Shown one piece after another: positions 8,248 to 39,462 of a stretch of DNA of 64,000 bases. Below the pieces are notes generated by a model. That model did not search any database and was not told the origin of the DNA. It worked only from the letters and a program-made list of their open reading frames with translations. The translations under genes and the position numbers were made by a program. Numbering within the stretch: position 1 is the first letter of the stretch; every line of letters begins with the position of its first letter. The DNA is from a bacterium (GTDB lineage Bacteria > UBA8248), in contig OZ244713.1 in the NCBI GenBank assembly GCA_965218885.1, positions 240,601 to 304,600 of the forward strand, given 5' to 3'.

Positions 8248-8744
8248 AAAAGACTCCTCCCCAACAAATACGTGGATTCGCGCTCAACGTGGTTTGCACT
8301 TAAAGCAAGATCCGATATTGATATACTGTTTTAAGATTATTTATCCTGTCATATATCACTGATTGTGTCAACAAACCCTTGATTTTCCCCTGCGCCAAGG
8401 GGTTCGACAGAATCGGCATTCAATATGGGCAGCTAACTGATCTCACGCCCGTTCAGAAATTCCCGCACGGCTGAATGAGCCGAACGCTCCGCCGCCATAC
8501 ACGCCCGCGCCCGGCATCCACCCACCGCAAATGCGGATTTAACCCATCCAGGGAGGGAGTGATTTTGAAGGCCTCGCTCTTTTGAAGTCTTTACAACTCG
8601 ATCACGTCCATCGCGTCGGGAGTGAGAACCCGCGGGCCGCTCTCCTCGACTATCACCTGGGGGCCGAAGACGATGAACATCCTGTCCTCGTGCGCGGCCT
8701 TCACCTCCACGGCGAGGGACATGCCCGCCTCGACCTCGAAATCC

Positions 8745-8938
8745 TCCAGAAAGCCGTAGCGATCGCCCGCGAGTTCGCGCCACTCGGGGTTCTCGGCGAG
8801 GGCCTTTCCATGATCGGGAAACTGTTCGGCCACGCGAGGATTGAAACCATGGCGCGCTATGCGCATCTCGCGCTCGATTCGGTGCGCGAGGCGGCGGAAC
8901 GGGTCGCCGAGAGCATCGCGGCTGATATTTTGGGCTAA
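8745..8938 (+). pseudogene. Tyrosine integrase fragment, last ~64 codons only
   Basis: The translation GEGLSMIGKLFGHARIETMARYAHLALDSVREAAERVAESIAADILG matches the C-termini of the two intact integrases at 24838 and 26015 (LGESLYTIGKLLGH..ARYAHL...). No upstream integrase sequence is present. Confidence 0.65.
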
Positions 8939-9135: not shown

Positions 9136-9687
9136 TCAGTCTTTCCCTGCGGTAGACATAGTGTCGTTCCAGGGTAATATCCGGCCATTTACAAATCTAT
9201 ATTTCTTTCTAATTTCACCGCGCAGATGTGGCGGGTCGTTCAACTCTCCCGAGTAGATGGATTCGTACCGGAAGCGGAGTTCGATATATTGGTTTAAGAC
9301 CTTTTCACTGTTGATAGTAATTTCCTTAGAAAAGCGTTTGTTATCCTCCGATGGGAATATTTCTATTTGACTTGTCATGAATGGTGAAACTAATAGGTTC
9401 TTCTCTGTGACAATGTACCAACTCGCTTTGAACGGAATTGTGTTCTCTGTATCCATCACGAATAGTTTTTTCCCGGACGTTGCTGAATGCGCGAGGAACG
9501 GTTTAATCAGTGGCTTAGTGTTCTTGTGTGTGGTCTGTGCGGTTGCTTCTAAGTTTTCAATCCGTGTGTCAATTATACTTTTGAAATGTTGTCCAGACGC
9601 TGCAACGATAAACCCTATGAAGATCAACAAATATGGCAGTATTCGAGCAATCTTGCCTAACGCTTCTATGTCATTCCAATAGGCCAC
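9136..9687 (-). CDS. Hypothetical membrane-anchored protein, visibly low GC (foreign)
   Basis: ORF in an AT-rich patch. The likely start is a GTG with AAGGAG 6 nt upstream, giving MAYWNDIEALGKIARILPYLLIFIGFIVAASG, an N-terminal TM anchor. I found no recognisable domain. The track ORF extends upstream into GC-rich DNA. Confidence 0.5.
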   Translation of the reverse strand: MAYWNDIEALGKIARILPYLLIFIGFIVAASGQHFKSIIDTRIENLEATAQTTHKNTKPLIKPFLAHSATSGKKLFVMDTENTIPFKASWYIVTEKNLLVSPFMTSQIEIFPSEDNKRFSKEITINSEKVLNQYIELRFRYESIYSGELNDPPHLRGEIRKKYRFVNGRILPWNDTMSTAGKD

Positions 9688-9961
9688 TGTTAGCTCCTTG
9701 GTTGTCGTATTCCCTGTCAAAATTCGCTTCCCATGGCGGCGCGAACCGCGTTCCACCGCCTGTCGCGCTCATCAGCAGAAAACGCAGGCGCGGCGTCGCC
9801 CGCGCGGCCGTCTCTGGGGAAAAACCTGGGGTCCGTCACCATCATCTTCTCCTGAAATTTTCGGGGCGAATCTCCTCCGTGCGACTGGACGCAGGCGCGC
9901 GGAATCATTTAGCCTCAAGAGTCATTTACCCTCACTATAACGAATGAATCGGCGCTAGAAA

Positions 9962-15560: not shown

Positions 15561-15854
15561 CTAGTCCGCGTCCTCGCGCCTGAGAAATTCCACCTTGAAC
15601 CGAACCATTCCGAGGAGTTCCACGCGGTGCGGCTCGGTGGGCCGGATAATGCCGACATCCCCGATATCCAGGCGGCGATTTCGCTCGGGCGCATCCGGAA
15701 CGACATAGTCGAGGCTGCCTTCGAGAACCACGATTCGAGCCCAAACCCCCGGCTTCGTGTCGTGCAGGGTCAGGAGTTTTTCGGGAACGGTCTTCTCGGT
15801 GAAGACTTCGCTTTCGAAGTACTTGACGAGCCCATCGGGAATACCCTCACTCAT
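15561..15854 (-). CDS. DUF1971-domain protein
   Basis: 97-aa protein with the blocks PDGLVKYFESEVFTEKTVPEKLL and VWARIVVLEGSL, which are typical of the DUF1971 small-protein family. Confidence 0.6.
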   Translation of the reverse strand: MSEGIPDGLVKYFESEVFTEKTVPEKLLTLHDTKPGVWARIVVLEGSLDYVVPDAPERNRRLDIGDVGIIRPTEPHRVELLGMVRFKVEFLRREDAD

Positions 15855-16300
15855 GCGCCCGACCTCCCGAGACCAGATGCGCCGAACATGGCGATTTGGA
15901 GGCCTTTGGCGATTTGCCCGGCGTGATCCATGAAATAAGCGACCGCGTCCGTCGTCGGCGCCGTGTCCCTCAGGGTTTCTTCGAACAACTCCAGCCAGAC
16001 GTCGAAATGCCAGGGCTGGACTTCCACGAGTTTCTTATGGGCCGGAATCGGCTCCCCCGAGTAGCGCCCGGCGTTCAAGGCCACCGTCGCCCAGAAATCC
16101 TTCATCTTCTCAAGGTGATACCCCCATCTATCGCCAATCGCCTCATCGAAAATCGGCCCGAGGAGCCGATCTTCCCGGATGCGGCTGTAAAAGGCATTCA
16201 CGAGCGCAGAGACGTAGGCCTCGTCAACCCCCATCGCGGCGGCTTTCTCCTGCACTTCTTGTCGGCGCTCACCCACGATATGGAGATGCGTCTTGTTCAT
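15851..16300 (-). CDS. Group-III truncated haemoglobin-like protein
   Basis: The segment VNAFYSRIREDRLLGPIFDEAIGDRW...HLEKMKDFWATVALNAGRYSG resembles the bacterial-globin (trHb group III) fold. Its stop overlaps the start of the downstream gene. Confidence 0.55.
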   Translation of the reverse strand: MNKTHLHIVGERRQEVQEKAAAMGVDEAYVSALVNAFYSRIREDRLLGPIFDEAIGDRWGYHLEKMKDFWATVALNAGRYSGEPIPAHKKLVEVQPWHFDVWLELFEETLRDTAPTTDAVAYFMDHAGQIAKGLQIAMFGASGLGRSGA

Positions 16301-16737
16301 GCGGCGTCTCCTGCAAGCAGGTCGAGAAGTTCGGGGTTGCGTTTCACGAGATCATGGACGGTATAGCGATCGAGAACGGTGAAAAAGGCTTCCTGCGCTT
16401 CGGCCAGAACGCTCTTGAGTTTGCAGTATGGCGTGATCAGGCACCCCCCGTTTCCTCCGGGAAAACACTCGACGAGGGCGCTGGCGCGCTCAGTTTGTCT
16501 CGCCACGGCCCCGACGGGGATATCCTCCGCCGGCTTGGCGAGCCTAAGACCTCCGCTTCGGCCCCGGAGCGTTTCGATAAACCCTGCGCGGCCCAACCCA
16601 TGCGCGACCTTCATCAAATGGTTTTTCGAGATCCCGTATCGCTCCGCGACTTCGTGGATCGTGACAAGAGCATCCGTGTGGATGGCCAGATGCATCAGCA
16701 TCCGCAGGGCATAGTCCGTTTGAAGCGTCAGCCGCAT
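16297..16737 (-). CDS. Rrf2-family transcriptional regulator (NsrR/IscR-like)
   Basis: The real start is MRLTLQTDYALRMLMHLA, the Rrf2 wHTH N-terminus. GGAGGA lies 7 nt upstream of the ATG at 16735-16737. The three cysteines in a C-terminal cluster (ECFPGGNGGCLITPYC) are spaced as the Fe-S ligands of NsrR/IscR. Confidence 0.8.
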   Translation of the reverse strand: MRLTLQTDYALRMLMHLAIHTDALVTIHEVAERYGISKNHLMKVAHGLGRAGFIETLRGRSGGLRLAKPAEDIPVGAVARQTERASALVECFPGGNGGCLITPYCKLKSVLAEAQEAFFTVLDRYTVHDLVKRNPELLDLLAGDAA

Positions 16738-16749
16738 CGGGTGTCCTCC

Positions 16750-16771
16750 GTATATCATATATATAATATAC
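16750..16771. promoter_or_regulatory. Near-perfect 22-bp AT-rich palindrome at the Rrf2 regulator promoter (candidate operator)
   Basis: gtatatcatatatataatatac matches its own reverse complement at 20 of 22 positions. It sits just upstream of the regulator RBS and contains TATAAT-like hexamers. Confidence 0.55.
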
Positions 16772-17383
16772 ATCTTTTAAGGATATTTGCAACACCCACT
16801 CCCAACACAAAGGATGCATGCCCCGCCCGGTCAAAACCTCATCGTCCCCGTGGGCATGTCCGCGGCCCCCAGGGGCTCGCCAGGCATTCGATGACTCCCC
16901 CTGAAACGAATACGGAAGAACACACAGGCAACATATATGTCCGCCCCTGCGAAACGATCGCCATTCCTCTCTCCCCGGTCCGCAATCGCTCCCTTTAGAG
17001 ACATCGAGCCGTTTTCATCGGCCATCAAATCTTGCCGTCATATTGATATTACTTTGGTACATTCATTATTTCCAATTTCGTCCGGAACAATGAATATTCG
17101 TGACATTAGGGTTTCACGGCTGGAAAGAACGTCCTTGCTTATATAAGATAAAGCCAGCCGAACGCGCCGCCTGAAATACCCGACACCAGCTTTCGGGCAT
17201 GGTTCCGGATTGCCCTGGTATGACTACCGTGCCGCCGGGTTAAAGGCTGTTTCCGGCTCAAAGAAACTCGTACGCCATACCGAACAGCAGGGGCTTACCC
17301 CGCGCCGGCTGGAGGTGGAGGAATTGTTCGGCGAAAGTGTGCGTGGAGACGAATTTTTGTCCTGATATTCATGGAGAAGACGA

Positions 17384-20160: not shown

Positions 20161-20875
20161 GATTCGTCTCCATTGTTGTAGCTCGGCGGCCTAACAGGTG
20201 AGGCCGGCGTAGCGATGAGCTACGCGCCAACTATAATCGCGAAATTATTACACCAAAACCCTCTGAAGGCGACTCTCGGAGCGGGTTTTCACCGGATTCG
20301 ATGCGCGTGGGGCGTGAAAAAAGGAGCCGCCGAAGCATAACCGTAAGCAAGCTGCTCTGGGCCGGACTTTGGAGGAGCCGCTGCACAATGCTCCGACAGG
20401 AATGCTCCAAGATGCGGGGGGGGGTTAATGTATCCGCTTTCGTTTTGGTTATATCCTACAAAATGCGGATTCCGAGCCTGTCGAAGGGGAGGAACCTGCC
20501 AGCAGAGGCACCGGGACGTATCCTGAGATCGCTTGGCTCGCGGCCCCGTCGAGGAACTCCGAACCCTCACCGGAGCGGACTTGTCCGCGTGACGCTGGCC
20601 GCTTACGCAACAACATGAGAAAATCCGTCCTCTGCGGGTTCCTCGAAGTCGCCGGGAGGCGCCGACGCAGATTGGCTTCGGAACCAGGGGCGAGAGCGCC
20701 CATGTCATGAAGGATGAGACAGGTCGACGACTTGGCCCCTAACCTTGGCGGACACCGGTTCGGTAGAGGTTTTCGACCCCGATGATTCACGAGGCGCCAA
20801 CCGGTCCGGACGGTTGCCGGAGCCCGTGCCGCGAACCGGCGGGCGGAAGTTCCGCATGGGCGCACAGGGAGCGTT

Positions 20876-24340: not shown

Positions 24341-24808
24341 CCCGCCGGACCGGACGGCAGTAAACCGGGGGACGAGTAATGCGCCCCGCGAGCTTCAGCC
24401 AAAGGGGTTCCGAACGCATCGGCGCCCGGCCTTCCTTGAATCTTCTCCAGAGACATCCGAATCGACCCCCGGCCCGAGCGATTTTTTGAGACCACCCCCA
24501 TCGAGACGAAGGCGCACAATCCCTCCCTCCTCGGTCGGGATTGACCCCGCATTTTCGGCGGCGGGAGTGGAGGAGTGCGCGTGTATGATGGCGGAGCGGC
24601 CCGGTTCGTCCGGGCCGAGGGAATTTCTGAAAAATACGATAAATTATTTTTATAAACCCGGTGATCGTCCAATAGTGCGACTGACCGCGTATGTCCATGA
24701 TAACTGATTGTTTATAATAATATATTTCCGTTATCTCCCTCCAAGATGCCCCTTGCATTTTCGTCATACATATGCTTGGATACCCTCCTGTTTGATGCCG
24801 CACGTATG

Positions 24809-24825
24809 CGTTTTGATTACATATT
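24809..24825. repeat. 17-bp direct repeat, left copy (candidate attL), immediately upstream of integrase 1
   Basis: cgttttgattacatatt at 24809-24825 matches 49214-49230 exactly. Partial similarity continues for about 9 nt beyond. It is AT-rich in a GC-rich genome. Confidence 0.45.
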
Positions 24826-24837: not shown

Positions 24838-26013
24838 ATGCCGAGGAGAAGCGAACTCAAGCTCACCAAGCGCACCGTAGACGCGCTCGAGGTCGAGGAG
24901 AAGGACGCCCTCTTCTGGGACCGGGAGCTGGCGGGCTTCGGTGTGCGCGTTCACGCCACGGGCAGGAAGGCCTACGTGGTGCAGTCCCGGGGACCCGGGG
25001 GTCCCAAACGCGTGACGCTCGGCCGTCACGGGGAATTGTCCGTCGATGAAGCGAGGAAACAGGCCGCCCTCATTATCGACCGCATAAAGCGCGGCGAGGA
25101 GCCGCTAGCTCAACCGTCCGGGGCGGAACCCACCGTGGCGGGATTCGCCGAGCGCTTCATGCGCACCCACGTGCAGAAACACTTGAAGCCTGGCACCGTC
25201 GCGGCGTACCGCACCGTGCTCGACAAATACATCCTGCCGGCCCTGGGCGGGATGGGACTGGAAGAAGTCGGCGGGGCGGAAGTCACGGAACTTCATCACC
25301 GGCTAAGGGACACGCCCACCCGGGCCAACGCGGCGGTCCATCTGCTGTCGCGGATGTACACCTTGGCCGAGGTGTGGGAGTTGGTCCCGCCCGGGCGCAA
25401 TCCCTGCCTCTCGGTGCGCCGCTACAGGACGCGGGCGCGCGAGCGGTTCCTGACGCCGGAAGAATACCGGCGCCTGGGCCGTGCGCTTAAGCAAGCGGAG
25501 ACGGAGGGCGCGATATGGCCGCCCGCCCTCGCGGCTATCCGGCTGCTCGTCCTGACCGGATGCCGCAGGGGCGAGATACTGAGTCTCGGGTGGGACGACG
25601 TGGACCGCACTGCGGGGGACTTGAGGCTCAGGGACGCCAAGGCGGGTCCCCGCATGGTCCCCCTGACAAAGCCGGTGCTTCGCGTGCTGGAAGGCATCAC
25701 ACGCTCCTCGGGAAACCCCTGGGTGATAGTGGGACAAAGACCGGGAAAGCGCCTGACGGGCCTGCACCACTACTGGCGGCCCGTCCGGGAGCGGGCGGGG
25801 CTTCATGACGTGCGCATTCATGACCTCAGACACTCCTACGCGTCGAGGGCGCTGGCGCTGGGCGAGAGCCTCTACACGATAGGCAAGCTGCTGGGCCACG
25901 CGAGCGTGGCGACGAGCGCGCGCTATGCGCACCTGATGCGCGAGGCCGAGAGGGAGGCGGCGGTACGGGTGGGCGGGAGCATCGGCGCCCACATCAAGAG
26001 CCGGGGGAGGTAG
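24838..26013 (+). CDS. Tyrosine-type site-specific integrase (P4-like, N-terminal Arm/DUF4102-type domain)
   Basis: The N-terminus has LTKRTVDAL...FWDRELAGFGVRV. The catalytic region has HDLRHSYASRA...LLGHASVATSARYAHL, carrying the R..H.R..Y residues. Confidence 0.85.
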   Translation: MPRRSELKLTKRTVDALEVEEKDALFWDRELAGFGVRVHATGRKAYVVQSRGPGGPKRVTLGRHGELSVDEARKQAALIIDRIKRGEEPLAQPSGAEPTVAGFAERFMRTHVQKHLKPGTVAAYRTVLDKYILPALGGMGLEEVGGAEVTELHHRLRDTPTRANAAVHLLSRMYTLAEVWELVPPGRNPCLSVRRYRTRARERFLTPEEYRRLGRALKQAETEGAIWPPALAAIRLLVLTGCRRGEILSLGWDDVDRTAGDLRLRDAKAGPRMVPLTKPVLRVLEGITRSSGNPWVIVGQRPGKRLTGLHHYWRPVRERAGLHDVRIHDLRHSYASRALALGESLYTIGKLLGHASVATSARYAHLMREAEREAAVRVGGSIGAHIKSRGR

Positions 26014-26014
26014 A

Positions 26015-27190
26015 GTGCAGATGAAGAAGCCCACAATGAAAACACTGTCGAACCGCGCGGTCGCGAAACTGAAAGTGGAGAAAGACACGGTCTTCTGGGA
26101 TCGCGACCTCACCGGCTTCGGCGTGAGGGTCTATCCCACCAGGAGCAAGGTGTATATCGCGCAAGCGCGGGGACCGGAGGGTCCCAGGCGCGTGGCGGTG
26201 GGCCGTCACGGGGTGATCAACGCCGATGAGGCGAGAAAGCGCGCCGCCCACATCATCGCGCGTATCAAGGCGGGCGAGGAGGCGGTTCCCGAACCGATGA
26301 AGCCGGCGGGAGGCCCCACTGTGGCCGAATTATGCGCGCGCTACCTCTCCGAATACGTCTCCGTGCGGTGCAAGCCGGGCACCGCCGCGCTCTACCGCTC
26401 GGTAATCAACCGCCACGTCCTGCCCGCCTTCGGGAAAATTCCGCTGGCGCGGCTCTCTCGCGCGCAGGTGGCGGAATTCCACCAGGGCCTCTACGAGACG
26501 CCCGCTGTCGCGAACATGGCGCTCCGCACCCTCTCCTCGATGTACGAACTCGCACGGGAGTGGGAACTGGTAGCAGACGGATTATCAAATCCCTGCCGCT
26601 CCATTATGAAATACCCCGAGCGCAGGCGCGAGCGGTTCCTGACGGATTCCGAGTTCATCCGCCTGGGAGAGGCCCTCGACGAAATGGAGACCCGGGGCGG
26701 TGCGTCCGCGTCCGCGGTGGCGGCGATCCGGCTCCTGGCGCTTACCGGGTGCCGTAGGAGCGAGGTCCTCAGGCTGCGCAAGGAGGACGTGGCGCTCGAA
26801 GCGGGCGAGTTGAGGCTGCCCGATTCCAAGACGGGCGCGCGGGCCGTCCCGTTGCCGCCGCAGGCGGTCGAGCTTCTCGCGAGTCTCCTGCGCGCCCACG
26901 GTGGTCCCTGGGTCATCCCGGGGAGGAAGCCGGGGACGCACCTCGGGAACATCGACGAGGCCTGGCGGGCGATAAGGGAGCGCGCGGGCCTCGAGGGCGT
27001 GCGGCTGCACGATCTGCGCCACTCCTGGGCCTCGCGGGCCCTTGCGCTCGGCGAGTCGCTCCCCGTGATCGGGAAGCTCCTGGGCCACAGCAAGATGGAA
27101 ACGACGGCGCGCTACGCGCACCTCGCGCGCGATTCGGCGCAGGAGGCGGCCGAGCGGGTCGCGGCGAGCATCGCGGAGGACATGCCGTAG
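26015..27190 (+). CDS. Tyrosine-type site-specific integrase, paralogue in tandem
   Basis: Same architecture as the first integrase (FWDRDLTGFGVRV...HDLRHSWASRA...LLGHSKMETTARYAHL). It starts 2 nt after the stop of integrase 1. Confidence 0.85.
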   Translation: MQMKKPTMKTLSNRAVAKLKVEKDTVFWDRDLTGFGVRVYPTRSKVYIAQARGPEGPRRVAVGRHGVINADEARKRAAHIIARIKAGEEAVPEPMKPAGGPTVAELCARYLSEYVSVRCKPGTAALYRSVINRHVLPAFGKIPLARLSRAQVAEFHQGLYETPAVANMALRTLSSMYELAREWELVADGLSNPCRSIMKYPERRRERFLTDSEFIRLGEALDEMETRGGASASAVAAIRLLALTGCRRSEVLRLRKEDVALEAGELRLPDSKTGARAVPLPPQAVELLASLLRAHGGPWVIPGRKPGTHLGNIDEAWRAIRERAGLEGVRLHDLRHSWASRALALGESLPVIGKLLGHSKMETTARYAHLARDSAQEAAERVAASIAEDMP

Positions 27191-27333
27191 GAAGGAGCGT
27201 TCCCCCACCTTTTTCGGCCCCTCGGGTCGTGGGTGGTTTTCAAGTGGTTGCCCATGCCCGGGGCAGGTGGTAAACTTCATTCAATTCAATATGTTATACG
27301 AATTGTTCATCTGAGACACTTCAGCCGGACGAG

Positions 27334-27642
27334 GTGCGGAGGAGTCCTTTGAGGAAGATCGACATCATCAACCTCGTATCGGACGATACGGGCCTCAGCA
27401 AGGTCAAGGCCGAAGAAGCCGTCGATACAATCATCGAAACCGTCAAGGAATCCCTCGGGAGGGGCGAGTCCGTCACGTTGAGGCGCTTCGGCTCCTTCGA
27501 GGTGAGGAAGAAGAACGCTCGTGTGGGGCGCAACCCGAAGACGGGCCGGGAAGCGCCCATCAGCGCTCGCAAGGTCGTGAGGTTCAAGGCGGGACGACAC
27601 TTCAAGGATGCGGTGAACGGCGCCGGGGTGAAATTCCATTGA
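27334..27642 (+). CDS. HU/IHF-family DNA-binding protein
   Basis: The blocks RFGSFEVRKKNARVGRNPKTGREAPISARKVVRFKAG form the HU beta-arm signature. The true start is probably the TTG at 27349, which has GGAGGAG upstream. Confidence 0.8.
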   Translation: MRRSPLRKIDIINLVSDDTGLSKVKAEEAVDTIIETVKESLGRGESVTLRRFGSFEVRKKNARVGRNPKTGREAPISARKVVRFKAGRHFKDAVNGAGVKFH

Positions 27643-27695
27643 ACCGCCGGTTTCCGGCCGGCCTGTCGGGATGCAAGGGGCGCGTCAGCCGGAAT

Positions 27696-27762
27696 CGTCC
27701 ATGACCGGCTGCCGGAGGCGGCCGAGCGGGTCGCCGCGAGCATCGCCGCCGACATGCTGTAG
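27696..27762 (+). repeat. Duplicated integrase 3'-end fragment downstream of the HU gene
   Basis: ggaggcggccgagcgggtcgc at 27714-27734 equals 27142-27162 inside integrase 2. It translates to AERVAASIAADML followed by a stop, like the integrase C-termini. Confidence 0.6.
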
Positions 27763-27813
27763 GTCGCCGGGCGCAACTCCCGGGAAATCCGGTCGATGAT
27801 GAATGCGGTTTTC

Positions 27814-30650
27814 CTATAACTCCATCCCTCGATCCGATCGGGTCTTCTCCATCACCGGCGACCGCCCCTCGCCCGGATGCAGCGCTTCCTTCGACCTCTC
27901 CGCCCCGATGCTCTCCGCCTTGCCCGCACCTATCGCCTCGAGCGCCGCGATGCGCTCCCCCGTCGCGGCTTCCAGCCGCTCGCACAGGGCCTTCGCGTCG
28001 TCCGTCACGAGTTCCGCCCGGTCCCGGGCGCGGCTGATCTCGACGTAGAGCGTCTTCTGGTTGGTGAGGTCGGGGTGGTTCGCCTCCATCGCCGCGATGA
28101 CGGTGTCGACCGTCCGGCCCTGGAAGGCGTGGACGGTCGAGGCCCATGCGCGGTCGACGTGGCGAAGCTGCGGGTCGCCGGCGGTCATGCCGAGCGTGCG
28201 CCCGTCCTCGATGCCGAAGGTGACGCGGCCGTTCATGACGCGCGTCACCTCGGCGGCCTGGCTGTTGACCAGACCGCGGTCCTTGTCGTTCCGGGTCCAG
28301 CGGACCTTGTCGCCTATGCGCAGTTCCATCCGCTCGACCTTGTATACCTCGACACCGCCGCTTCTCGCCGCGATTCGGCCCGGCTCCCAGCGGACTTCCC
28401 CTCCATGTCTGCCTTCGAGGATGACCGCGCCGCCCTTGTGATCGACGCCCGCCACGCGCAGCTCGTCCCCCTTCTCGACGCCCAGGCGCTTGTAGGGGCG
28501 GTGGAAGGCGACGACGTCGCCGGGTGAATAGTTCGCGGCGAGCGATTTCTCGGGATTCGTATAGCCGCGCGAGACGAGGCGCTGCGTGAGGAATGCCGGG
28601 CCGCAGACGACGCCCTCCCGGACCAGGCGCTCGCGGACGATGGCGTTGATCTTCTCGCGAATCTTATGGCTCGGCGCCATGAGCCCCGCCCGCTCGCGCG
28701 CCTCGGGCGGGAGCGCCAGCCAGCGCGCGGCGGCTGCGCCCGCGAGGTTGTCGGGCTTCACTTCGGCCACGTTCGAACCGAGCTTATCGAAGGCGCGCCT
28801 GACGTCGCCTGAGAGAGTGGCCTCGACGGCCGCTTTCAGGTCCGGGTCGCGCTGGCGCATGATCTCGTCCATGGTCGCCGTCTTCATGCCCGCGGCCTGA
28901 AGCTGCGCGAAGGGTTTGCCGGCGTCGACGGCGTCGAGTTGTTTCGCATCGCCGACGAGCACGACCCGGGGAAGGCGCAGGACCTCCGAGATACGGAGCA
29001 GTTCGCGCACCTCGCGCGTGGAACGAGGGAGCCCTCGTCCACGACGAGAGCGGTCTTCGCGTAGCCCGCGCGCAAGTGTTTTTGGGCTTTCCTCTTCAGG
29101 CGGCCATCGGCGACGTCCGCGTTTCGCGTGAGGAAGCGCTGGAGCGTCTCGCTCTCGATGCCGGCCTCGGCTTCGAGTGTCCGCGCGGCCGAGGCCGAGG
29201 GGGCCAGGCCCCGGACCTCGTAGCCGCGTTTTTCGAAGAGGGCGCGGGCGCGGCTGAGCATCCTGGTCTTCCCGGTCCCGGCGTAGCCCTGCACGCCCAC
29301 CACGCGGTCCTTTTCCGAGAGGATCAGCTTGACCGCGTCCCTTTGGCCCTGCGTCAGCGGTCCCTTGCGCAGATGCGCGCTCACCATCCAGCCCCGCATG
29401 GCGGGCGCGCCTCGCCCCCTGCCTGCCTCCACGAGGGCGATGGTCTCGCGCTCTGCCGCCGCCGCCTTCTCCGTCGTGAGCATGTCCTTCACTCCGGGCA
29501 GGTCCGCCGCGTGCAGGACGCCCGTTTTTTCGAGTCTCGCCACCTCGCGCACAGCATTCGCCATCGACACCGCGCCGGGCCGCCAGGCGAGCGCGCCCGC
29601 GAGCAGAGCGGCGCGGTCGAAGACGGCCTTGCGCTCCGCGAGATGCGCCACGGCCCATTCCACGGCTTCCCTCGCGGGTTCGACGTCCGCCGCGCTCCGG
29701 CCGGCGTCGCGGGATAGGGCGCTCCTCTCTATCGCCTGTGCCTTGAGGGTCCCGGCGTCGAAGCCCAACTCCTTCGCCTGCTTCTCCCAGGAGGCCATGA
29801 GCATCGCCTTGTCGGCCTCCCGCTTGCGATCCCTCGTCATAAGCGCGACCCGCTGGGCTGCGCGCTGGTTCTCCGCCGTCGCACCCAGACCCCGCTCGGC
29901 CATCGCGGCCTCGATCTCCGCCCGCCGGGTCGAGAACGCCTCGATCACTTCTCTGGGGACGCCCGCGACCTCGAAGCGCCCGTCCGCGTGGGTCTTCTCC
30001 ACCCGGTAGCCGAACCCTTCGAGGCCCCGGGCGAGTTCGGTCCGGTAGAGGGCGCCGATCAGCATCTTCTGGGCGTAGAGCTTCTCGTTGGACATCGTGC
30101 GCCACTTGCCGTCCGTCCCCCGGACCATGTTGGCGATAACCGCGTGCGTGTGGAGCAGGGGGTCGAGGTTGCGCGACGTATCGTGCCGGAAGGTCGCGAT
30201 GACGCTCTTCTGGTCTCCCGCCCGGACCATCCGTCCGGTCCCGGGCTCGCTCATCCTGGTCTCGGCGACGTTTCGCTCGACCCAGGCCAGGGTGCGCGCC
30301 ACGGCCACTTCGTGTGCCCAGATCGCGCGCCCGTCGCCACCGAGGTAGGCCAGCAGTGAGACGGACTTGGGCGCCGAGAGGGTGAGGTCTCGGCCGGGAC
30401 GGTGGTGGAACGACCCGTCCTTGCCCGGGCGCCCGAGCCTGCGCCCCGAACCGTCCGGCACTACGCCCTCTAGCACCGCGCGGAGGGTATCGGGGTCGAC
30501 CGGACCCGTGAGTCCCAGGTCCTCCGCGCCCCTGCCGCGCCAGGCGCTCGCATCCCGGTGGTTCGGGTCGTCCTTCGCGTAGTAGTCGTCGCGCTCGAAG
30601 TAGGAGACACACTGCGCCGGCGCGACGACGGCGCCGATGGATGCCACCAT
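27814..30650 (-). pseudogene. TrwC/TraI-type (MobF) conjugative relaxase-helicase, reading frame broken near 29025
   Basis: The N-terminus MVASIGAVVAPAQCVSYFERDDYYAKDD...HDTSRNLDPLLHTHAVIANM is the TrwC relaxase domain with its HxH motif, followed by a P-loop GYAGTGKT. The frame breaks after ALVVDEGSLV. The shifted frame then reads TREVRELLRISEVLRLPRVVLVGDAKQLDAVDAGKPF and continues to the helicase C-terminus. The break is at a short T/A run. ATG at 30650 is preceded by GAGGAG. Confidence 0.8.
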
Positions 30651-31100
30651 ATCAGTAGCTCCTCAGGCGGTTCCGATGCGACCGCCCTTGCGGACCCGCG
30701 CCTTCTCCCGCCTCGCCGCTCACGCGGCGGCGCTCCCGTGCGTCCGGATCGTTCCCGACTTTCCCGTTCATATGCGTCTCTCCTTCGCGTTCGAACCTCT
30801 CGCCCCGATCGATCCTCCGGCGTCATGCGGGCGGGGGCTCGCATCGCCCGCATTCAGGAGAAAAATAAGGCAAAAAAACCCGTTTGCAAGGATTTTCTAT
30901 ATCTAGTTTCCTACGCTTTCGCGTCATACGCGCCCTCGCATACGACCGGCTGCGCCGGGATATGATCTTTTTTTTTCGCAGCACGCCTCGCCCCGCGCCG
31001 GCGAGAGGCAGAGCCTGGCCGGGAGGGGGCGCGGGAGCCTGGCCGGAGAGGCCGGGCGGCGCCCGCATTCCCCTCACCCGCAACCCCGGAGGCGCGGCCC

Positions 31101-31444
31101 ATGAGTAACCAGAATCCATCCCGATACACCCGGGCCCTCGTTCTGGCGGGACCTGCTCTCGCACTTCTCGCCACAATCCTCTCTCTCGCGGCCGGGAGCG
31201 GTCTCCGCCTCCCCCTGTGGCCGTCTGGACCGGTTCGGCCCTCTGGTGCCTTCTCACGGCCCTCTCGTGCGTCCTGTGGCGGGGGTTCCGCCATGGGGAC
31301 TGGACGGCCTTCACCCGCTACCGACTCCCCGACGGGCGCGACGAGCGCTTCGACTGGTCGACCCGTACCGGCCGCTATGCCTGGCGCCGCGAGCTGGAGG
31401 AGCAGGAACTTCACGGCCACGACCCGGACGCACCCTTCCCGTAA
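31101..31444 (+). CDS. Hypothetical small protein, possibly frameshifted (two overlapping frames with TM-like segments)
   Basis: The ATG at 31101 has GGAGG 8 nt upstream. It encodes MSNQNPSRYTRALVLAGPALALLATILSLAAG and then drifts into low-complexity sequence. The frame of 31217..31444 gives a W-rich, plausible C-terminus. This is speculative. Confidence 0.25.
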
Positions 31445-31928
31445 AAGGCCTCCGGCGCGCTCCGCGCCGCAAAGAGGCCGAGCCGGGCCGGGAGGAGGCG
31501 CGGCCGGGCGGCCGGGAGAGGGCGTTTCCCCGCTACGCGCAAATCATCCAATTCAGGGAGACTCACGAGATGCGAAAACCGAAACCCGAAGCGAGCACCT
31601 TCCTCACTCACCTGTTTGGACGCGGCCTCGAGGATGAGCGCTACGCCGTCGAGAGGTTCCGCTCGGCGGATGACGGCGAGATCCGTCCCCTGCCCGCCGG
31701 GGGGCGCGGGACGAGACACGCGACCGCTTCCAGGAGAGCCGTCCGGAAGATGCGTCCCGCGCGCGATGAAATCATCGTCTGCACGGGGCTCAGGCTCAAA
31801 ACCTCGGGAATCCAGTATTGGGGCGGGCAGGCAACGGGACTTTTCGCCCAGGGCAGGCGGCGCTGAGGGGACGTCCCGCCGTCCGTCCCGCGCCTGTATT
31901 CCAGCCACTCGGGGGAGGAGACCGCACA

Positions 31929-32741
31929 ATGCCCCATAAAGACCCTGAAGAAGCCCGCGCGTATGAACGCGAGCGTTGCCGCAAGCGCACCGCCGACCGA
32001 CTCGCAAGGGGCCTTTGCCCCCGGTGCGGGAAACACCGGCCCGCACCCGGGCGCAGGGACTGTGAGCCCTGCGGCGAGAGGGCGCGCGATTCCGAACGCC
32101 TCCGCTACGCCAGAGCCAAGGCCGGGGGCGCGCACTACGGTGGACGCAATTCCGAGAGCCGCCGCAGAATGGCCAGGGAGAGGAGGAGGAAGCAAAGGAT
32201 CGAGCGCAAGGAAGCCGGGTTATGCGTCCGTTGCGGCGAGCTTGCTCCGGCGGAGGGCAGCGTCGTCTGCGAGACCTGCCGGGAGGCGAGGCGCGCTGAA
32301 GAGCGAAATCTCTACGCCGCCAGGAGAGCGAAAGGGCTTTGCGGCAGGTGCGGAGGACAGGTCTTCGCGGGAGCTTCCAGGTGCGGCCCGTGCGCCGCGC
32401 TCGAGAAGGCGCGCTCATCCGGAAAGAACGCCATCCGCAGGAAGCGCTATCACGACAGGCGCGCACGGGGGCTTTGCGTCGACTGCGGCGTCCATGCGGA
32501 CGCAGGGGTGAGATGCGCGAGCTGCGCGCGCCGATCGTATCACTCCTCGGGCGAGCACAGGGGAATGCCCGTCTATCCGCCCCGCTATACCGTGGTCGAA
32601 CTCGCCACGGGCGAGGAGCACGGACCCTGGGACTCCTGGGAAGAGGTCGCCATGTGCCTCGCCTTCGCGAAACTCTCGCGGGAGGAAGTGGAAGTCATCG
32701 AAGACGCTCCCGTGATGGCGAATCTCACATCTTGGGGGTGA
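31929..32741 (+). CDS. Novel protein with four tandem zinc-ribbon-like repeats (GLCxRCG...CxxC) plus a C-terminal acidic domain
   Basis: From the internal start MPHKDPEEARAYER, four repeats follow: RGLCPRCGKHRPAPGRRDCEPCGER, AGLCVRCGELAPAEGSVVCETCREA, KGLCGRCGGQVFAGASRCGPCAAL and RGLCVDCGVHADAGVRCASCARR. Each is followed by a basic R/K-rich linker. The C-terminal domain is YTVVELATGEEHGPWDSWEEV. I recognise no family. Confidence 0.55.
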   Translation: MPHKDPEEARAYERERCRKRTADRLARGLCPRCGKHRPAPGRRDCEPCGERARDSERLRYARAKAGGAHYGGRNSESRRRMARERRRKQRIERKEAGLCVRCGELAPAEGSVVCETCREARRAEERNLYAARRAKGLCGRCGGQVFAGASRCGPCAALEKARSSGKNAIRRKRYHDRRARGLCVDCGVHADAGVRCASCARRSYHSSGEHRGMPVYPPRYTVVELATGEEHGPWDSWEEVAMCLAFAKLSREEVEVIEDAPVMANLTSWG

Positions 32742-33314
32742 CGCGCCTGCACGTGCCGCCGGCCGTCGGGAGTACGTACTGCCGTCCTGCCGCCGGGGGG
32801 GGGCGACCGGGGGGAGGGTCTGACGACCGCCGCCCTGCTGCGCAGCCGTCCCGCCGCCGGGGGGGGTCGCTGGCCGGACTCGCCTCCCCAGCGTGAAGTA
32901 CCCGGGACTCCGGACCGGGGGGGCGCACGCCCGTGCAATCGGCTCGACGAGTTCGCCACCGGCGACGAAGACGCCGAGCGCAATCCCGGCCCGCCAGTCG
33001 GCACGGAGTCAACCCGGCATCCATCGTTTCCGGCATCCCAGCGCCGGCAGCGCCGACGACCAGCCTCACCGGCGGTGACAAGAACGTCGCCGCCCCGAAA
33101 TCCCACCGCTCGATTCGTCTCCGTTTCCACGTGCCCCATCCATCCGAATCCCGGACCTGACGCAAGACCGGCGCGGTATGCGGGCGGTCCTTATCGGCTG
33201 TGAACCTGCCCGGGAGAGGCAGAGAGAAGCAGGGGACCGGGCAAATGCCCGGTAGGGAGAGGGAGACCGTCTCCCTCCCGACGCCGGGCGCGACAACCCG
33301 AGAGGAGGCCTGGC

Positions 33315-33450
33315 CATGTTCGAGAACGACTACGAAGTCGACGTTCCCACCGCAGACGAACTGCTCGCCGAGATCGGACTCGACGCGTACACGATCCGCG
33401 TCATCCGCGACGAGACGAAAGGCGAGGCGGAGGAATTCAGGAGGGAATAG
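33315..33450 (+). CDS. Small ORF (45 aa) with a strong RBS upstream of ssb
   Basis: GAGGAGG lies 7 nt upstream of the ATG at 33315. It encodes MFENDYEVDVPTADELLAEIGLDAYTIRVIRDETKGEAEEFRRE. It is below the ORF-track size cut-off. Confidence 0.35.
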
Positions 33451-33527
33451 GGCGAACCGGGGGGTGGAGAGAAAGGCTCTCCCCCTCCCATCACTTTTTC
33501 ACACTCACACCACGAAGGAGAATCACA

Positions 33528-33962
33528 ATGGCATTCGGACTCAACCGCGCGGAACTGATCGGGCGTCTCGGCGCCGACGTCACCATCAACCATCTCGCGA
33601 GCGGGGGACGCGTCGCTAACCTCTCCATCGCCACCGACGAGGGCTACGTCGATAAGCAGTCCGGCGATCGGGTGGAGAAGACCGAGTGGCACCGGGTCGT
33701 GACGTTCCAGCCCGGGCTGGTCGACATGTTCGAGAAGCACGCGAAGAAGGGCCGCCTGATCTACGTGGCGGGCAAGCTCCAGACCCGCCGCTGGAAGAAG
33801 GACGATGAGGACTCGGATCGGTTCTCGACCGAGATCCTCATCGCGCCGGGCGGACGCGTGCAGTTCCTCGACAAGGTGAACGGGAACGGCAACGGCGCGC
33901 ACCCAGAGACGGCCGATGTGGCGGCCACAGCGGGCGTAGTGGGCGAAGATATTCCATTCTGA
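33528..33962 (+). CDS. ssb: Single-stranded DNA-binding protein
   Basis: The OB-fold opening MAFGLNRAELIGRLGADVTINHLASGGRVANLSIATDE is present, followed by a Gly/Asn linker and the acidic tail ending DIPF, which is the canonical SSB C-terminus. Confidence 0.9.
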   Translation: MAFGLNRAELIGRLGADVTINHLASGGRVANLSIATDEGYVDKQSGDRVEKTEWHRVVTFQPGLVDMFEKHAKKGRLIYVAGKLQTRRWKKDDEDSDRFSTEILIAPGGRVQFLDKVNGNGNGAHPETADVAATAGVVGEDIPF

Positions 33963-33974
33963 TCACCCCGGGGG

Positions 33975-34007
33975 GGTCGGCGTTACGGCGCCGGCCCCTT
34001 TTTTTGC
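33975..34007 (+). terminator. Rho-independent terminator after ssb
   Basis: gggtcggcg-ttacg-gcgccggccc is a 9-bp stem with one G-U pair, followed by a T7 run (ccttttttt). Confidence 0.65.
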
Positions 34008-34572
34008 TCGTTGTCCAGAGGAGGTCCGCCATGCCCCGAACACCCTCTCCCGCGGCAGAAATCGCCCTGCCGGCCCTCTCATCTACCGGGAACACCCGGG
34101 AAATCTCCGGTTCCGTGAACGGTAAACCATGTTCACGGAAGATCGGCAGGAACGCTGCAATCATCCCATATTCAGGATAGTGGCTCGGTCCACCCCCCGC
34201 TGCGGGAATTTCGGGCCGGAAAAACGGCCCGAAATGACCCTCTCCGCAGCATGAGAGATTGTTTCACGACGAGCTTCGCCTTCATCGTGAAACAAGCAGA
34301 AGCTCTTATGTCCCGGTGGCGAAACAACTGTCTCTCTCTTAGCGTCCTCATTTTAGCACGAACGCCGAGCGAATAAAGGGTGGCCGCAGGCGGCCATCAT
34401 TTGCCGGTACCCCCCAAAAAACGATGACCCGTGTTTTTCGGGAACCCCCCGGAAAATGACGAGCCCTTGATTCGCCCGCCTACGGGCGCCGGATACACCG
34501 ACCGGCGCCCTTACGTGCTGAAAATGGGGCGCTAAGAAGCGCATCCGTTAATCCTCAAGAAAGGAGAAAGGC

Positions 34573-34944
34573 ATGGAAACCACCGTGGTGAACCTGAACA
34601 CCTATGTTGATGAACACGACAGTGGCGTGCTGGTGAGGATCGACCGCATGACGAAGTGGGGAAATCCCTTCCGCATCGGCCAGGACGGCGACCGCGACGA
34701 CGTGATCGAGAAATACCGGCGAAGGCTGTGGAGAAAAATCCAGCAGGAGGAGCTGGACCTCTACGAACTCGCCGACCTTCACGGCTGCGAGCTCGGCTGC
34801 CACTGCCATCCCCTCCCGTGTCACGGCGACGTCCTCGCACGCGCCGCTGAATGGGCAGCCAAATATCTCGACGAGATGCCGAAAGAAGTGGGGCGCAACG
34901 AGCGTGGCTACGCTCTTCCTGAATACAACCATCCCCTCGCTTGA
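34573..34944 (+). CDS. DUF4326-domain protein
   Basis: The blocks TKWGNPFRIGQDGDRDDVIEKYRRRLW and GCHCHPLPCHGDVLA are the hallmark WGNPF and CxC...CHGDVL motifs of DUF4326. RBS AAGGAG lies upstream. Confidence 0.75.
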   Translation: METTVVNLNTYVDEHDSGVLVRIDRMTKWGNPFRIGQDGDRDDVIEKYRRRLWRKIQQEELDLYELADLHGCELGCHCHPLPCHGDVLARAAEWAAKYLDEMPKEVGRNERGYALPEYNHPLA

Positions 34945-34965
34945 GGACAACGAAAGGAGTGAACG

Positions 34966-35916
34966 ATGATCGCTACACACGACCACAAGGAGATGAACAT
35001 GAACGAGCACAGCGAACACGAAGCCCAGAACGAATCCTTCACCGCCATGGTCTGTGAGCAGGCCGCCCTCTTCGGCGCCACGCCTGGGCCGGACGAGTTC
35101 GACAACCGACCCATGTGGGGCGAGGCCGAGGCAACCGCCGCCGTCCTTAAAGCCTTCCACCTGCTCGCCGAGGCAGCGCCCGACGGCACGCAGCTTGCGG
35201 ACGAGCGGGCGAGCCTCCTCTGGGGATTCGTCAACACCCTCGACGCCCAGATCCAGAGGCTCGACCGCGCCGCCGACAGGCTCATCCCCGGCATCCGCGA
35301 ACTGCAGCGCGAGCAGGACGGCTCGGAGATCAGGTCCCGCGAACTCGAACTCAAGACCGACCGCGCGCAAAATCTCTCAGACCGACGCGACGCCTTCGAA
35401 GGGTTGCGCGACACGGCCGCAGAGGCCTACCGTGACCTGACCGGCGAGGTATGGCGGCCGAGGCGAGGCTCGCACGTCTCACAGACCGGCAAGCTGACTT
35501 CCTCAGTTGTCGAGGCGCGCGACTTCCAAAGGGCGAAAAAGGACCGCGAGAACACCGCGCACTTGCCCCAGGGAACCCTCGTCGCCGTCGCGGGCGGCAA
35601 GGAGGCGAACGACGCGGGAAAAATCATCGCGCATCTCGACAAGGTCAAGGCCAAGTACGCCGACGTCGTTCTCGTCCACGGCGGCGGCCCGGGTGCTGAG
35701 AAGATAGCTGCGGGATGGGCCGAGCGGAACGGCGTCCACCAAGTCGTCTGCAAGCCCGACTGGGATGCCCACGGTCGGGCCGCTCCCTTCCGCCGCAACG
35801 ACGAACTCCTCGCCCTCCTCCCCAAGGGCGTGATCGCGTTCCCCGGTTCGGGCATCACCGACAACCTCGTCGACAAGGCCCGCTCGCTCGGAATTCCCGT
35901 CCAAAAAGTAGCGTGA
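34966..35916 (+). CDS. Coiled-coil N-terminus fused to a C-terminal SLOG/DUF2493 (DprA/Smf-like Rossmann) domain
   Basis: The C-terminal segment TLVAVAGGKEANDAGKIIAHLDKV...VVLVHGGGPGAEKIAAGWAERNGVHQVVCKPDWDAHGRAAPFRRNDELL...VIAFPGSGITDNLVDKARSLGIPV matches DUF2493, which is common on conjugative elements. Confidence 0.65.
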   Translation: MIATHDHKEMNMNEHSEHEAQNESFTAMVCEQAALFGATPGPDEFDNRPMWGEAEATAAVLKAFHLLAEAAPDGTQLADERASLLWGFVNTLDAQIQRLDRAADRLIPGIRELQREQDGSEIRSRELELKTDRAQNLSDRRDAFEGLRDTAAEAYRDLTGEVWRPRRGSHVSQTGKLTSSVVEARDFQRAKKDRENTAHLPQGTLVAVAGGKEANDAGKIIAHLDKVKAKYADVVLVHGGGPGAEKIAAGWAERNGVHQVVCKPDWDAHGRAAPFRRNDELLALLPKGVIAFPGSGITDNLVDKARSLGIPVQKVA

Positions 35917-36571
35917 CGTGAACGCTCAACGGGTCGCGTCGTCGCCGCCCGGCGGCGCGGCCCGTTGCGTCTCGTCGACCAACGCTCGCGCCACTTGCGC
36001 CGGCAACGATGAAGACTCCACTGGTCTTGCCGCAGGAACGACTCTCCGCATTGCTCCTCCCGCTCAATCGCCGCGGCGGCTCCCGCTCGCCTCGTTCACC
36101 GGCAAAAATTCCCCCGACTCGCGTTCCCTAAAATCCCTGCGCTAGCCGCCCTTCGGCGTTTCGTTCAGTACACCCCACGCAGCTACTCTGCGGGTGTTGC
36201 GGTGATATGACTGCGCGCGATGAGCCGTGATAATTCGCACCCCCGTGTGTTCCAGTCGCGCCGGAAAAAGTAATACCATTCTGGTAGCTCGCGAACCCGG
36301 CGCTCAAGCCTGCGCCTTGCCTGCCTCTCATACGAGCAAAACAGCAGGTGAACGGCATTTGCGAATCTCCTCTCTCCTACGGGATACCAAATTGGTAGTA
36401 AACAGACATGCGCTGCTCTATGATGGCTACCAATTTTGTATCTCATGAAGCGGAGTTATTCGGAGGCCTTCTGAGTTTGTAAGAAGTGCATTCGTTATAA
36501 AAAGCAGGCTGTTTGCGGTCGTTTCGGGATCAAAATTGTCTCGAATCTTTACGAAAGGATCGGCAAAACGA

Positions 36572-39398: not shown

Positions 39399-39462
39399 AA
39401 GAATCAGGGCCGAACTTAATCGGGAGAGCACGGCAATCGGGGAAAAGCTAAGGAGTTTAATC

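What the first reader, a model, noticed from the sequence alone, without database searches (positions are those of the whole stretch)
27142..27762. Integrase 3'-end sequence duplicated in three places, including flanking the HU gene
The last ~30 nt of integrase 2 (ggaggcggccgagcgggtcgc...) recur 570 bp downstream with a stop codon, giving AERVAASIAADML followed by a stop. This brackets the HU gene. A more diverged 64-codon integrase tail lies at 8745-8938, next to a low-GC gene. The pattern suggests serial integration or recombination events that used the integrase 3' end as the crossover site, or tandem accretion of related elements.
Basis: seen in the sequence. Interest (0 to 1): 0.5.

Follow-up and report, generated by a model that had tools for sequence, protein, structure and literature searches.

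The report
Leftover integrase tail in mobile element
The repeated integrase end beside the HU gene is real, but it is most likely a dead leftover of a second integrase gene, created when two related mobile elements were joined and trimmed, which is an ordinary kind of scar.

Summary
The repeat is real. The last 49 nt of integrase 2 (27142-27190) recur at 27714-27762 (44/49 identical, stop codon included), 572 bp downstream, and they bracket an HU gene. A third integrase tail lies at 8792-8938; it spans about 48 codons, not 64.

The setting is the left end of an integrated mobilizable element. It carries a conserved tandem pair of P4-type tyrosine integrases, then a cargo slot, then a convergent TrwC relaxase, SSB, DUF4326 and YAcAr. 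About 30 related loci were compared.

- In four loci, integrase 2 abuts exactly the flank that follows the second copy here, so the slot is empty.
- In others the slot holds varied cargo such as HU, TetR or a GCS2 ligase. No recombinase was seen among the cargo genes examined.
- In about ten loci the cargo is followed by an integrase-2 remnant of a different length (about 22, 49, 68, 131, 156 or at least 192 nt, or internal pieces), some visibly decayed.
- One locus carries two diverged copies of the whole tail-flank-relaxase junction.
- The junction in the window shows 4-nt microhomology.

The second copy is therefore most likely a pseudogene relic. It arose by accretion or recombination between related elements followed by deletion. 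It is probably not an attachment site. This is ordinary mobile-element decay in an apparently undescribed element family.

The parts
24621..24640 (+). Left junction of the integrated element (GAATTTCTGAAAAATACGAT). Homology to about 30 related loci starts here, and the host flanks to the left differ in each locus. In L017 the site is a 9-bp inverted repeat, ATCGAATTT-N5-AAATTCGAT. It is a candidate core attachment site (inferred).
24838..26013 (+). Integrase 1, a 391-aa P4-type tyrosine recombinase with Arm-DNA-bind_3, SAM_3 and Phage_integrase domains.
26015..27190 (+). Integrase 2, 391 aa, with the same domain set as integrase 1. The DNA of the two genes is about 64% identical, and the pair is conserved in all related loci.
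27142..27190 (+). Copy 1 of the repeat: the functional 3' end of integrase 2 (codons 376-391 plus the stop). It lies downstream of the catalytic Tyr motif ARYAHL.
27191..27240. A stretch of about 50 nt that, in the HU-bearing loci compared, occurs only in this window. It replaces the GGTCACAGCAGGCGCGCGCCGG that opens the HU cassette in L020, L091, L012 and L017.
27241..27348 (+). Upstream region of the HU gene, shared with the HU cassettes of the related loci.
27349..27642 (+). HU/IHF-type DNA-binding protein gene, 97 aa. The TTG start is placed by analogy with the gene calls in L002 and L091. An ORF from the GTG at 27334 is also possible.
27643..27713 (.). Spacer after HU, conserved in L020 and L091. 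In L091 it continues into the remnant of a NYN-domain gene instead of into the integrase tail.
27714..27762 (+). Copy 2 of the repeat: a 49-nt relic of the last 16 codons plus the stop of an integrase-2-type gene. The first 4 nt (GGAG) are microhomology shared with the spacer lineage.
27763..27813 (.). Conserved backbone flank, including the hairpin CCGGG-CGCAACT-CCCGG at 27767-27783. In the empty-slot loci L001, L003, L009 and L087 it follows the integrase 2 stop codon directly.
27814..30650 (-). TrwC-type relaxase/helicase gene, convergent with the integrases. A 1-nt deletion near 29022-29025 disrupts it (a pseudogene or an assembly error).
30984..36200 (.). Rest of the conserved element backbone: unknown ORFs, SSB (33528-33962), DUF4326 (34573-34944) and YAcAr (34966-35916). 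No type IV secretion genes were seen. The right end is unresolved (about 36.2-36.7 kb).
8792..8938 (+). Lone relic of an integrase-2-type 3' end (residues 345-390). It is closest to the L019/L020 lineage, at 80-84% nucleotide identity.
8594..8794 (-). Truncated 3' fragment of an unrelated gene, fused directly to the lone relic. This is a deletion scar.
9136..9756 (-). Low-GC ORF of 206 aa. It has no Pfam match and no homologue in the related loci. It is probably old cargo of the decayed element.

Best explanation
The window holds an integrated, mobilizable-type element that starts at about 24621. Its layout is a conserved tandem pair of tyrosine integrases (int1, int2), then a cargo slot that begins at the int2 stop codon, then a backbone that opens with a convergent TrwC relaxase.

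The second tail copy (27714-27762) is the dead 3' stump of another int2-type gene. That gene once sat directly against the relaxase-side flank, as int2 still does in empty-slot relatives.

The stump arose when DNA from a related element (int1-int2-HU-...) was joined upstream of a resident element. The joining was either tandem accretion or recombination anchored in the homologous integrase genes. A microhomology-mediated deletion then removed everything between the HU spacer and codon 376 of the resident int2. The lone tail at 8792-8938 is the same kind of stump, from an older and almost fully deleted element.

Shown here: the repeat, the empty and filled slots, the variable and decayed relics, and the duplicated junction in L042.

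Inferred: the order of events, and the choice between accretion and homology-anchored illegitimate recombination.
For: 1. Empty slot. In L001, L003, L009 and L087 the int2 stop is followed directly by the flank that follows copy 2 in the window (window 27706-28079 matches L001 9115-9485 at 86%).
2. Relics elsewhere. Int2 remnants sit between cargo and that same flank in about ten further loci, and their left edges differ.
   - L020: 49 nt, the same junction as the window.
   - L018: about 49-56 nt.
   - L089: 68 nt.
   - L005 and L041: 131 nt.
   - L042: 156 nt.
   - L088: at least 192 nt.
   - L010: a mid-gene piece (residues about 162-197) fused to the last 8 codons.
   - L013 and L090: internal pieces only.
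3. Relics decay like pseudogenes. L005 reads GKLLGH as CRLPDH, L042 has lost YAHLAR, and L010 has an internal deletion.
4. Two elements joined. L042 has a 659-nt direct repeat at 83% identity covering int2 tail + flank + relaxase 3' end, with inverted int1 fragments between the copies.
5. Junction. L091 has the same HU gene and spacer but no copy 2; its spacer runs into a NYN-gene remnant. The window junction shares only GGAG with the int2 sequence.
6. Cargo. The slot contents vary and the ORFs examined include no recombinase (HU, TetR, GCS2 ligase, membrane and unknown ORFs).
7. Precedent. Tandem arrays of related integrative elements that collapse by recombination into hybrids and deletions are established for SXT/R391 and ICESt1 (PMC5812530).
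Against: - The window and L020 share the identical spacer/copy-2 junction. Yet in each locus, copy 2 carries bases typical of its own int2 lineage (positions 5 and 41). This needs gene conversion between the two copies, or repeated formation at one fixed point.
- No locus with two complete integrase pairs in tandem was found, so the accretion intermediate was not observed.
- The last 49 nt of the relics are somewhat better conserved than the neighbouring spacer. That could hint at a function.
- Relic left edges all fall within the last 192 nt of the gene, or are small internal pieces. This fits progressive erosion, but erosion is not proven.
Confidence: 0.7

Rival explanations
1. The two tail copies are attL and attR of a small HU cassette that has no integrase of its own. 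Int1 or int2 inserts the cassette into a site inside the int2 3' end. The cassette supplies a replacement tail, as P4-type islands do for tRNA 3' ends.
For: - The direct repeat contains a 21-nt identical run and has a sharp left edge.
- Precise empty sites exist in close relatives.
- L020, at 81% overall identity, has identical boundaries, and each copy 2 shares lineage-specific bases with its own copy 1.
- In att sites the length of target homology can differ between elements.
Against: - Some relics contain mid-gene integrase pieces or internal deletions, which an attP site would not carry (L010, L013, L042, L090).
- The HU cassette has no constant ends. Its right side differs in L002, L017, L091 and the window, and its first about 23 nt are replaced in the window.
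- Most HU-bearing loci have no second tail (L002/L004, L006, L007/L008, L012, L017, L091).
- The tail of L001 is not the chimera expected from a copy 1 x copy 2 crossover.
- The junction microhomology points to illegitimate joining.
Confidence: 0.1
2. There was never a tandem array. Incoming DNA from a related element (int2 plus downstream cargo) recombined once with the resident element. One end was anchored by homology inside int2. The other end joined illegitimately a few codons before the resident stop, which duplicated the resident tail (homology-facilitated illegitimate recombination).
For: - It gives the same end products as the main explanation: an intact hybrid int2, cargo, and a resident tail of arbitrary length that always runs to the stop and the flank.
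- Microhomology is present at the junction.
- It explains why relics are always of the int2 type and never include int1.
Against: - L042 keeps a relaxase 3' remnant and inverted int1 fragments between the two junction copies. These are more than a single anchored event would leave.
- The relics in L010, L013 and L090 need extra deletions in any case.
Confidence: 0.17
3. The similarity is coincidental, or reflects only convergent protein-coding constraint on integrase C-termini.
For: The region is GC-rich, and family D5 also lists a 62% match at 52068 that looks like chance.
Against: - No matches are expected in shuffles.
- Copy 2 is not part of any integrase ORF.
- Its downstream flank is orthologous to the flank of int2 in the empty-slot loci.
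Confidence: 0.01

Closest known systems
Tandem accretion and deletion of integrative elements (ICESt1/ICESt3 and CIMEs of Streptococcus thermophilus; Pavlovic 2004 and Bellanger 2011, as listed in PMC5812530)
   Same: - Related integrative elements become joined side by side.
- Internal deletions then leave truncated recombination-module remnants and composite elements with added cargo.
   Different: - In those elements the internal scars are att sites, and accretion was shown experimentally.
- Here the scar is an integrase 3' stump next to the relaxase gene.
- No internal att copy was found, and nothing was tested experimentally.
SXT/R391 tandem arrays, hybrid formation and variable-DNA hotspots (PMC5812530, section on ICESXT-R391)
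   Same: - Arrays of related elements are unstable and resolve by recombination into hybrids and deletions.
- A conserved backbone carries fixed positions where cargo varies.
   Different: - SXT has one integrase, targets prfC and encodes its own conjugation machinery.
- This family has two tandem integrases and many insertion sites, and no mating-pore genes were seen.
Partial target-gene duplication by P4-type integrases at tRNA genes (established knowledge, not tested here)
   Same: - A direct repeat of a gene's 3' end brackets inserted DNA.
- The gene is kept intact, and an empty site exists in relatives.
   Different: - The repeated gene here is the integrase itself.
- The insert has no integrase.
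- The repeat edges vary from locus to locus and include decayed gene interior.
SSV1-type integrases with attP inside the integrase gene (established knowledge)
   Same: Pieces of an integrase gene are found apart from one another in an integrated state.
   Different: - In SSV1 the integrase gene is split into two parts at opposite ends of the element.
- Here int2 is complete, and the extra piece is a redundant 3' copy 572 bp away.
Integron attI/attC cassette capture (established knowledge)
   Same: A cargo site lies next to a tyrosine recombinase gene.
   Different: - Integron cassettes sit upstream of a divergent intI and each ends in an attC hairpin.
- Here cargo lies 3' of int2.
- Multi-gene cargo (L005, L018) has no internal repeats.

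Membership tests
Tyrosine recombinase / P4-type integrase (int1, int2) | Phage_integrase catalytic domain plus an N-terminal arm-binding domain (Arm-DNA-bind_3) and a SAM-like core-binding domain | tested here: met
   PF00589 scores E=5e-21 and 5e-23, and PF13356 and PF14659 are above cut-off in both proteins.
Tyrosine recombinase / P4-type integrase (int1, int2) | Catalytic motifs: R, then HxxR, then H...Y near the C-terminus | tested here: met
   Read from the translations. The motifs are TGCRRSE/TGCRRGE, HDLRHS and LLGH...ARYAHL. The Tyr lies upstream of the repeated tail.
attL/attR pair of a site-specifically integrated cassette | Direct repeat with an identical core at both ends of the insert | tested here: met
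   44/49 identity with a 21-nt identical run.
attL/attR pair of a site-specifically integrated cassette | Unoccupied site in relatives | tested here: met
   L001, L003, L009 and L087.
attL/attR pair of a site-specifically integrated cassette | The same crossover point and the same repeat edges in independent insertions | tested here: not met
   Relic lengths are about 22, 49, 68, 131, 156 and at least 192 nt, and there are internal pieces. Only L020 shares the window's edge, and its cassette is orthologous.
attL/attR pair of a site-specifically integrated cassette | A discrete insert with constant ends that recurs as a unit | tested here: not met
   The right side of the HU cassette differs in the window/L020, L002, L017 and L091. 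The left 23 nt are replaced in the window.
attL/attR pair of a site-specifically integrated cassette | Excision or integration catalysed by the recombinase | not testable with these tools
   This needs sequencing reads from the source sample or an in vivo assay.
Composite element formed by accretion or recombination of related integrative elements | Redundant, truncated copies of recombination or transfer genes inside one element | tested here: met
   Copy 2 in the window, the relics in about ten loci, and the 659-nt duplicated junction of L042 at 83% identity.
Composite element formed by accretion or recombination of related integrative elements | An intermediate with two complete elements in tandem and an internal att site | tested here: inconclusive
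   None was found among about 30 loci. No second copy of the 24621-type junction lies within 10 kb. The sample is small and the flanks are limited to 6-10 kb.
Integrative and mobilizable element (IME) | Own integrase, plus a relaxase with oriT, and no mating-pore genes | tested here: inconclusive
   Integrases and a TrwC relaxase are present. No type IV secretion domains were found at 30.6-48.5 kb. However, the right end and oriT are undefined, and the relaxase is frameshifted here.
Integron | attI next to a divergently transcribed intI, with cassettes each ending in attC | tested here: not met
   Cargo lies 3' of int2. There are no repeats between the genes of multi-gene cargo.

The most novel reading that the evidence does not exclude
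The int2 stop-codon region may be a dedicated capture site. One of the two integrases would insert integrase-less cargo circles that carry a copy of the int2 tail. The tail copies would then be used attachment sites, and the two-integrase module would split its work between moving the element and acquiring cargo. The shared lineage-specific bases of copy 1 and copy 2 in both the window and L020, and the fact that at least seven unrelated sequence types begin exactly at the int2 stop, are not excluded by this reading.
Probability: 0.08. Interest if true: 0.7.

Novelty: new member of a known kind. Interest (0 to 1): 0.25.

Why it matters
The result explains a puzzling repeat as a scar of element-to-element recombination. 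That prevents it from being annotated as an attachment site or a gene.

It also outlines an integrative element family that I did not find described in two literature searches. Its features are:
- a tandem pair of P4-type integrases;
- a cargo slot at the int2 stop codon;
- a TrwC relaxase, SSB, DUF4326 and YAcAr backbone.

The family is present in several copies per genome in uncultured bacteria, some of which are labelled Nitrospinota. It appears to exchange modules often. The scars can be used to reconstruct how such elements gain cargo.

Tried and rejected
- tRNA or structured-RNA target. No tRNA or tmRNA and no Rfam family occurs anywhere in the window, so the repeat is not a disguised RNA-gene att site.
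- Second copy of the left-junction core (attR). None was found in the window with up to 3 mismatches. None was found within 10 kb in the related loci. The right end of the element stays undefined.
- Hidden degenerate tail after HU in L002-type loci. The local alignment is no better than shuffles, so this idea was rejected.
- Search for the spacer/copy-2 junction in JGI metagenomes. There were no hits.
- Exact look-up of the window's HU protein. It is not on record.
- Promoter and terminator consensus scan of 27100-27900. Nothing was found.
- Homologues of the lone-relic neighbours (the fragment at 8594-8794 and the low-GC ORF) in the related loci. None was found.
- Idea that window 9.9-24.3 kb is cargo of an old element begun by the lone relic. 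The genes there are ordinary metabolic ones: PALP, AzlC, creatininase, dehydratase, M20 peptidase, isochorismatase and pyruvate carboxylase. Only a short stretch (15564-16777) has a counterpart inside L013. The idea is left open and is not adopted.
- Similarity between the int2 tail and the left-junction core. It amounts to 11 of 20 positions by eye, which is not convincing.

Full report
**Observation**

The window carries two adjacent integrase genes on the plus strand. Int1 is at 24838-26013 and int2 at 26015-27190. Each is 391 aa with Arm-DNA-bind_3, SAM-like and Phage_integrase domains.

A 97-aa HU-type gene follows at 27349-27642 (Pfam Bac_DNA_binding, E=3e-30). On the minus strand lies a TrwC-type relaxase/helicase gene at 27814-30650.

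The last 49 nt of int2 (27142-27190) recur at 27714-27762. Identity is 44/49, with a 21-nt perfect run and the stop codon included, and the start-to-start spacing is 572 bp. A shuffle control expects no such match.

The second copy is not part of an integrase ORF. The identity is therefore at nucleotide level and is not explained by present coding constraint.

A third, more diverged tail lies at 8792-8938. It covers int2 residues 345-390. That is about 48 codons rather than the 64 reported, because 8745-8791 is the antisense of a truncated unrelated gene.

**Context**

No tRNA, tmRNA or Rfam family occurs in the window.

Int2 has thousands of homologues, many at 80-97% identity and often several per genome. 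I collected about 30 closely related loci from species-representative genomes, JGI metagenomes and ENA assemblies. Some of the source records are labelled Nitrospinota. One 4.39-Mb chromosome holds five copies.

In every locus with enough sequence to the left, the int1-int2 pair is conserved. Homology to the window starts sharply at about 24621, at GAATTTCTGAAAAATACGAT, and the host genes to the left are unrelated from locus to locus. In L017 this junction is a 9-bp inverted repeat with a 5-bp spacer. It is a plausible core site for the element's own integration, but I found no second copy that would mark the right end.

To the right, many loci share a backbone of the relaxase, unknown ORFs, SSB, DUF4326 and YAcAr. 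No mating-pore genes were seen in the window. The element therefore looks like an integrative mobilizable element rather than a self-transmissible one. The relaxase in the window carries a 1-nt deletion near 29022.

**The slot between int2 and the relaxase**

Sequence conservation among loci breaks exactly at the int2 stop codon, where at least seven unrelated sequence types begin.

*Empty slot.* Four loci (L001, L003, L009, L087) have nothing in the slot. The int2 stop is followed directly by GGCGCCGGGCGCAACTCCCGG and then the relaxase 3' end. This is the very flank that follows the second tail copy in the window (window 27706-28079 matches L001 9115-9485 at 86%). Relative to these loci, the window has a 572-bp insertion bracketed by the repeat.

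*Filled slot.* Other loci carry various cargo:
- HU alone;
- HU with an AT-rich ORF and a TetR gene;
- a GCS2-type ligase;
- several unknown ORFs.

None of the cargo ORFs examined is a recombinase.

**Integrase remnants**

In about ten loci the cargo is followed by a remnant of an int2-type gene that runs into the same backbone flank. The left edge of the remnant differs each time:

| Locus | Remnant |
|---|---|
| Window, L020 | 49 nt, same junction |
| L018 | about 49-56 nt |
| L089 | 68 nt |
| L005, L041 | 131 nt |
| L042 | 156 nt |
| L088 | at least 192 nt |
| L010 | mid-gene piece (residues about 162-197) fused to the last eight codons |
| L013, L090 | internal pieces only |

The remnants decay like pseudogenes. 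GKLLGH has become CRLPDH in L005, YAHLAR is lost in L042, and L010 has an internal deletion.

L042 contains two copies, 83% identical over 659 nt, of the whole unit int2 tail + flank + relaxase 3' end. Inverted int1 fragments lie between them. That is what two related elements joined together and partly deleted would look like.

Most HU-bearing loci have no second tail at all (L002/L004, L006, L007/L008, L012, L017, L091).

**The junction in the window**

L091 carries the same HU gene and the same spacer as the window and L020. After ...CATGACCGGCTCGCCGGAG, however, it continues into the remnant of a NYN-domain gene (identified in L017, E=3e-9). The window continues into GCGGCCGAGCGG of the integrase tail instead.

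The two parental sequences share only GGAG at the join. This 4-nt microhomology is typical of illegitimate deletion, not of site-specific exchange. An apparent resemblance between the post-HU sequence of L002 and the tail did not survive a shuffle test.

**Interpretation**

The second tail copy is best read as the stump of a second int2-type gene that once abutted the relaxase-side backbone. It was displaced when an int1-int2-HU segment from a related element came to lie upstream, and it was then trimmed by deletion.

I cannot decide whether the joining was a true tandem accretion followed by deletion, or a single event anchored by homology in int2 with an illegitimate second join. L042 favours accretion. 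Tandem arrays of related integrative elements that resolve into hybrids and deletions are well documented for SXT/R391 and ICESt1-type elements (PMC5812530).

The lone tail at 8792-8938 is fused to a truncated unrelated gene and followed by low-GC DNA. It is the same kind of stump from an older element of the L019/L020 lineage.

**What speaks for the rival att-site reading**

- The empty sites are precise.
- The window and L020, about 81% identical overall, have identical repeat edges.
- In each of these two loci, copy 2 shares lineage-specific bases with its own copy 1 (G versus T at position 5, A versus C at position 41).

Gene conversion between repeats 570 bp apart can explain the last point, but I could not test this. 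Against the att-site reading stand:
- the variable and internally deleted relics;
- the absence of constant cassette ends;
- the many HU loci without a second tail;
- the microhomology at the junction.

I give the att-site reading about 10%.

**Function of HU (inferred only)**

The HU/IHF-type gene sits next to the integrases in roughly a third of the loci. It could serve as an architectural cofactor for integration or for relaxosome assembly, as host IHF/HU does in known systems. Nothing here tests that.

**Verdict**

The feature is an ordinary decay scar inside an element family that I did not find described in two literature searches. The family is moderately interesting; the scar itself is of low interest.

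Noticed in passing
window 24838-27190, and loci L001-L024, L041-L043, L087-L091: The tandem int1-int2 pair (about 64% DNA identity between the two genes) is conserved as a unit at 82-93% DNA identity in most of about 30 loci (about 75% in L019). It occurs up to five times in one 4.39-Mb chromosome (OZ241875.1). Why two integrases are kept together is unknown.
   Followed up: partly
window 24621-24640; L017 8607-8629: The left junction of the element is a short AT-rich near-palindrome (ATCGAATTT-N5-AAATTCGAT in L017), set in otherwise unrelated host flanks. It is a candidate core attachment site. A subset of loci (window, L001, L005, L010, L011, L015) also share about 80 nt to its left (TTGAC...CCCGCATTT...TATGATGGCGGAGC).
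   Followed up: partly
window 29022-29025: The TrwC relaxase gene has a 1-nt deletion relative to L002 and L009 and is split into two reading frames. This is either a pseudogene or an assembly error.
   Followed up: yes
window 20390-20468, 49157-49231, 62858-62942 (minus strand), and partly 24790-24825: A conserved motif of about 75 nt ending in ...CGTTTTGATTACATATT recurs upstream of several genes, including pyruvate carboxylase and int1. It is also found in L021 and L023. It may be a promoter/operator or a small repeat element.
   Followed up: partly
window 59877-61003: A Mutator-family (IS256-like) transposase is split over two ORFs. It is 89% identical to a stretch at the end of L003.
   Followed up: partly
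window 53117-54167: A 1052-nt stretch (coiled-coil ORF 53020-54105, minus strand) is 89% identical to DNA near the integrase pairs of L007 (upstream) and L021 (downstream). It may be another mobile or element-associated gene.
   Followed up: no
window 37467-48527: A lower-GC (0.50-0.57) plus-strand cluster encodes a repeat-rich 643-aa protein (12-nt periodic GCGGCG-type repeats at 37787-38273). It also encodes three DUF4384 proteins, an OmpA-caspase-DUF4384 protein and a WD40-caspase protein. A 300-nt internal repeat lies at 39864-40163 and 40350-40649.
   Followed up: no
window 15564-15855 and 16430-16777; L013 14388-15072: Two short stretches among the window's metabolic genes are 76% identical to DNA lying inside the cargo slot of L013, right after that locus's integrase relic.
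   Followed up: no
L002 9230-9918 (also L004-L008): An AT-rich segment with a small ORF (a predicted membrane or lipoprotein-like product) is inserted into the upstream region of the HU cassette. It is flanked by ATAAATTC / ATAAATTTC.
   Followed up: no
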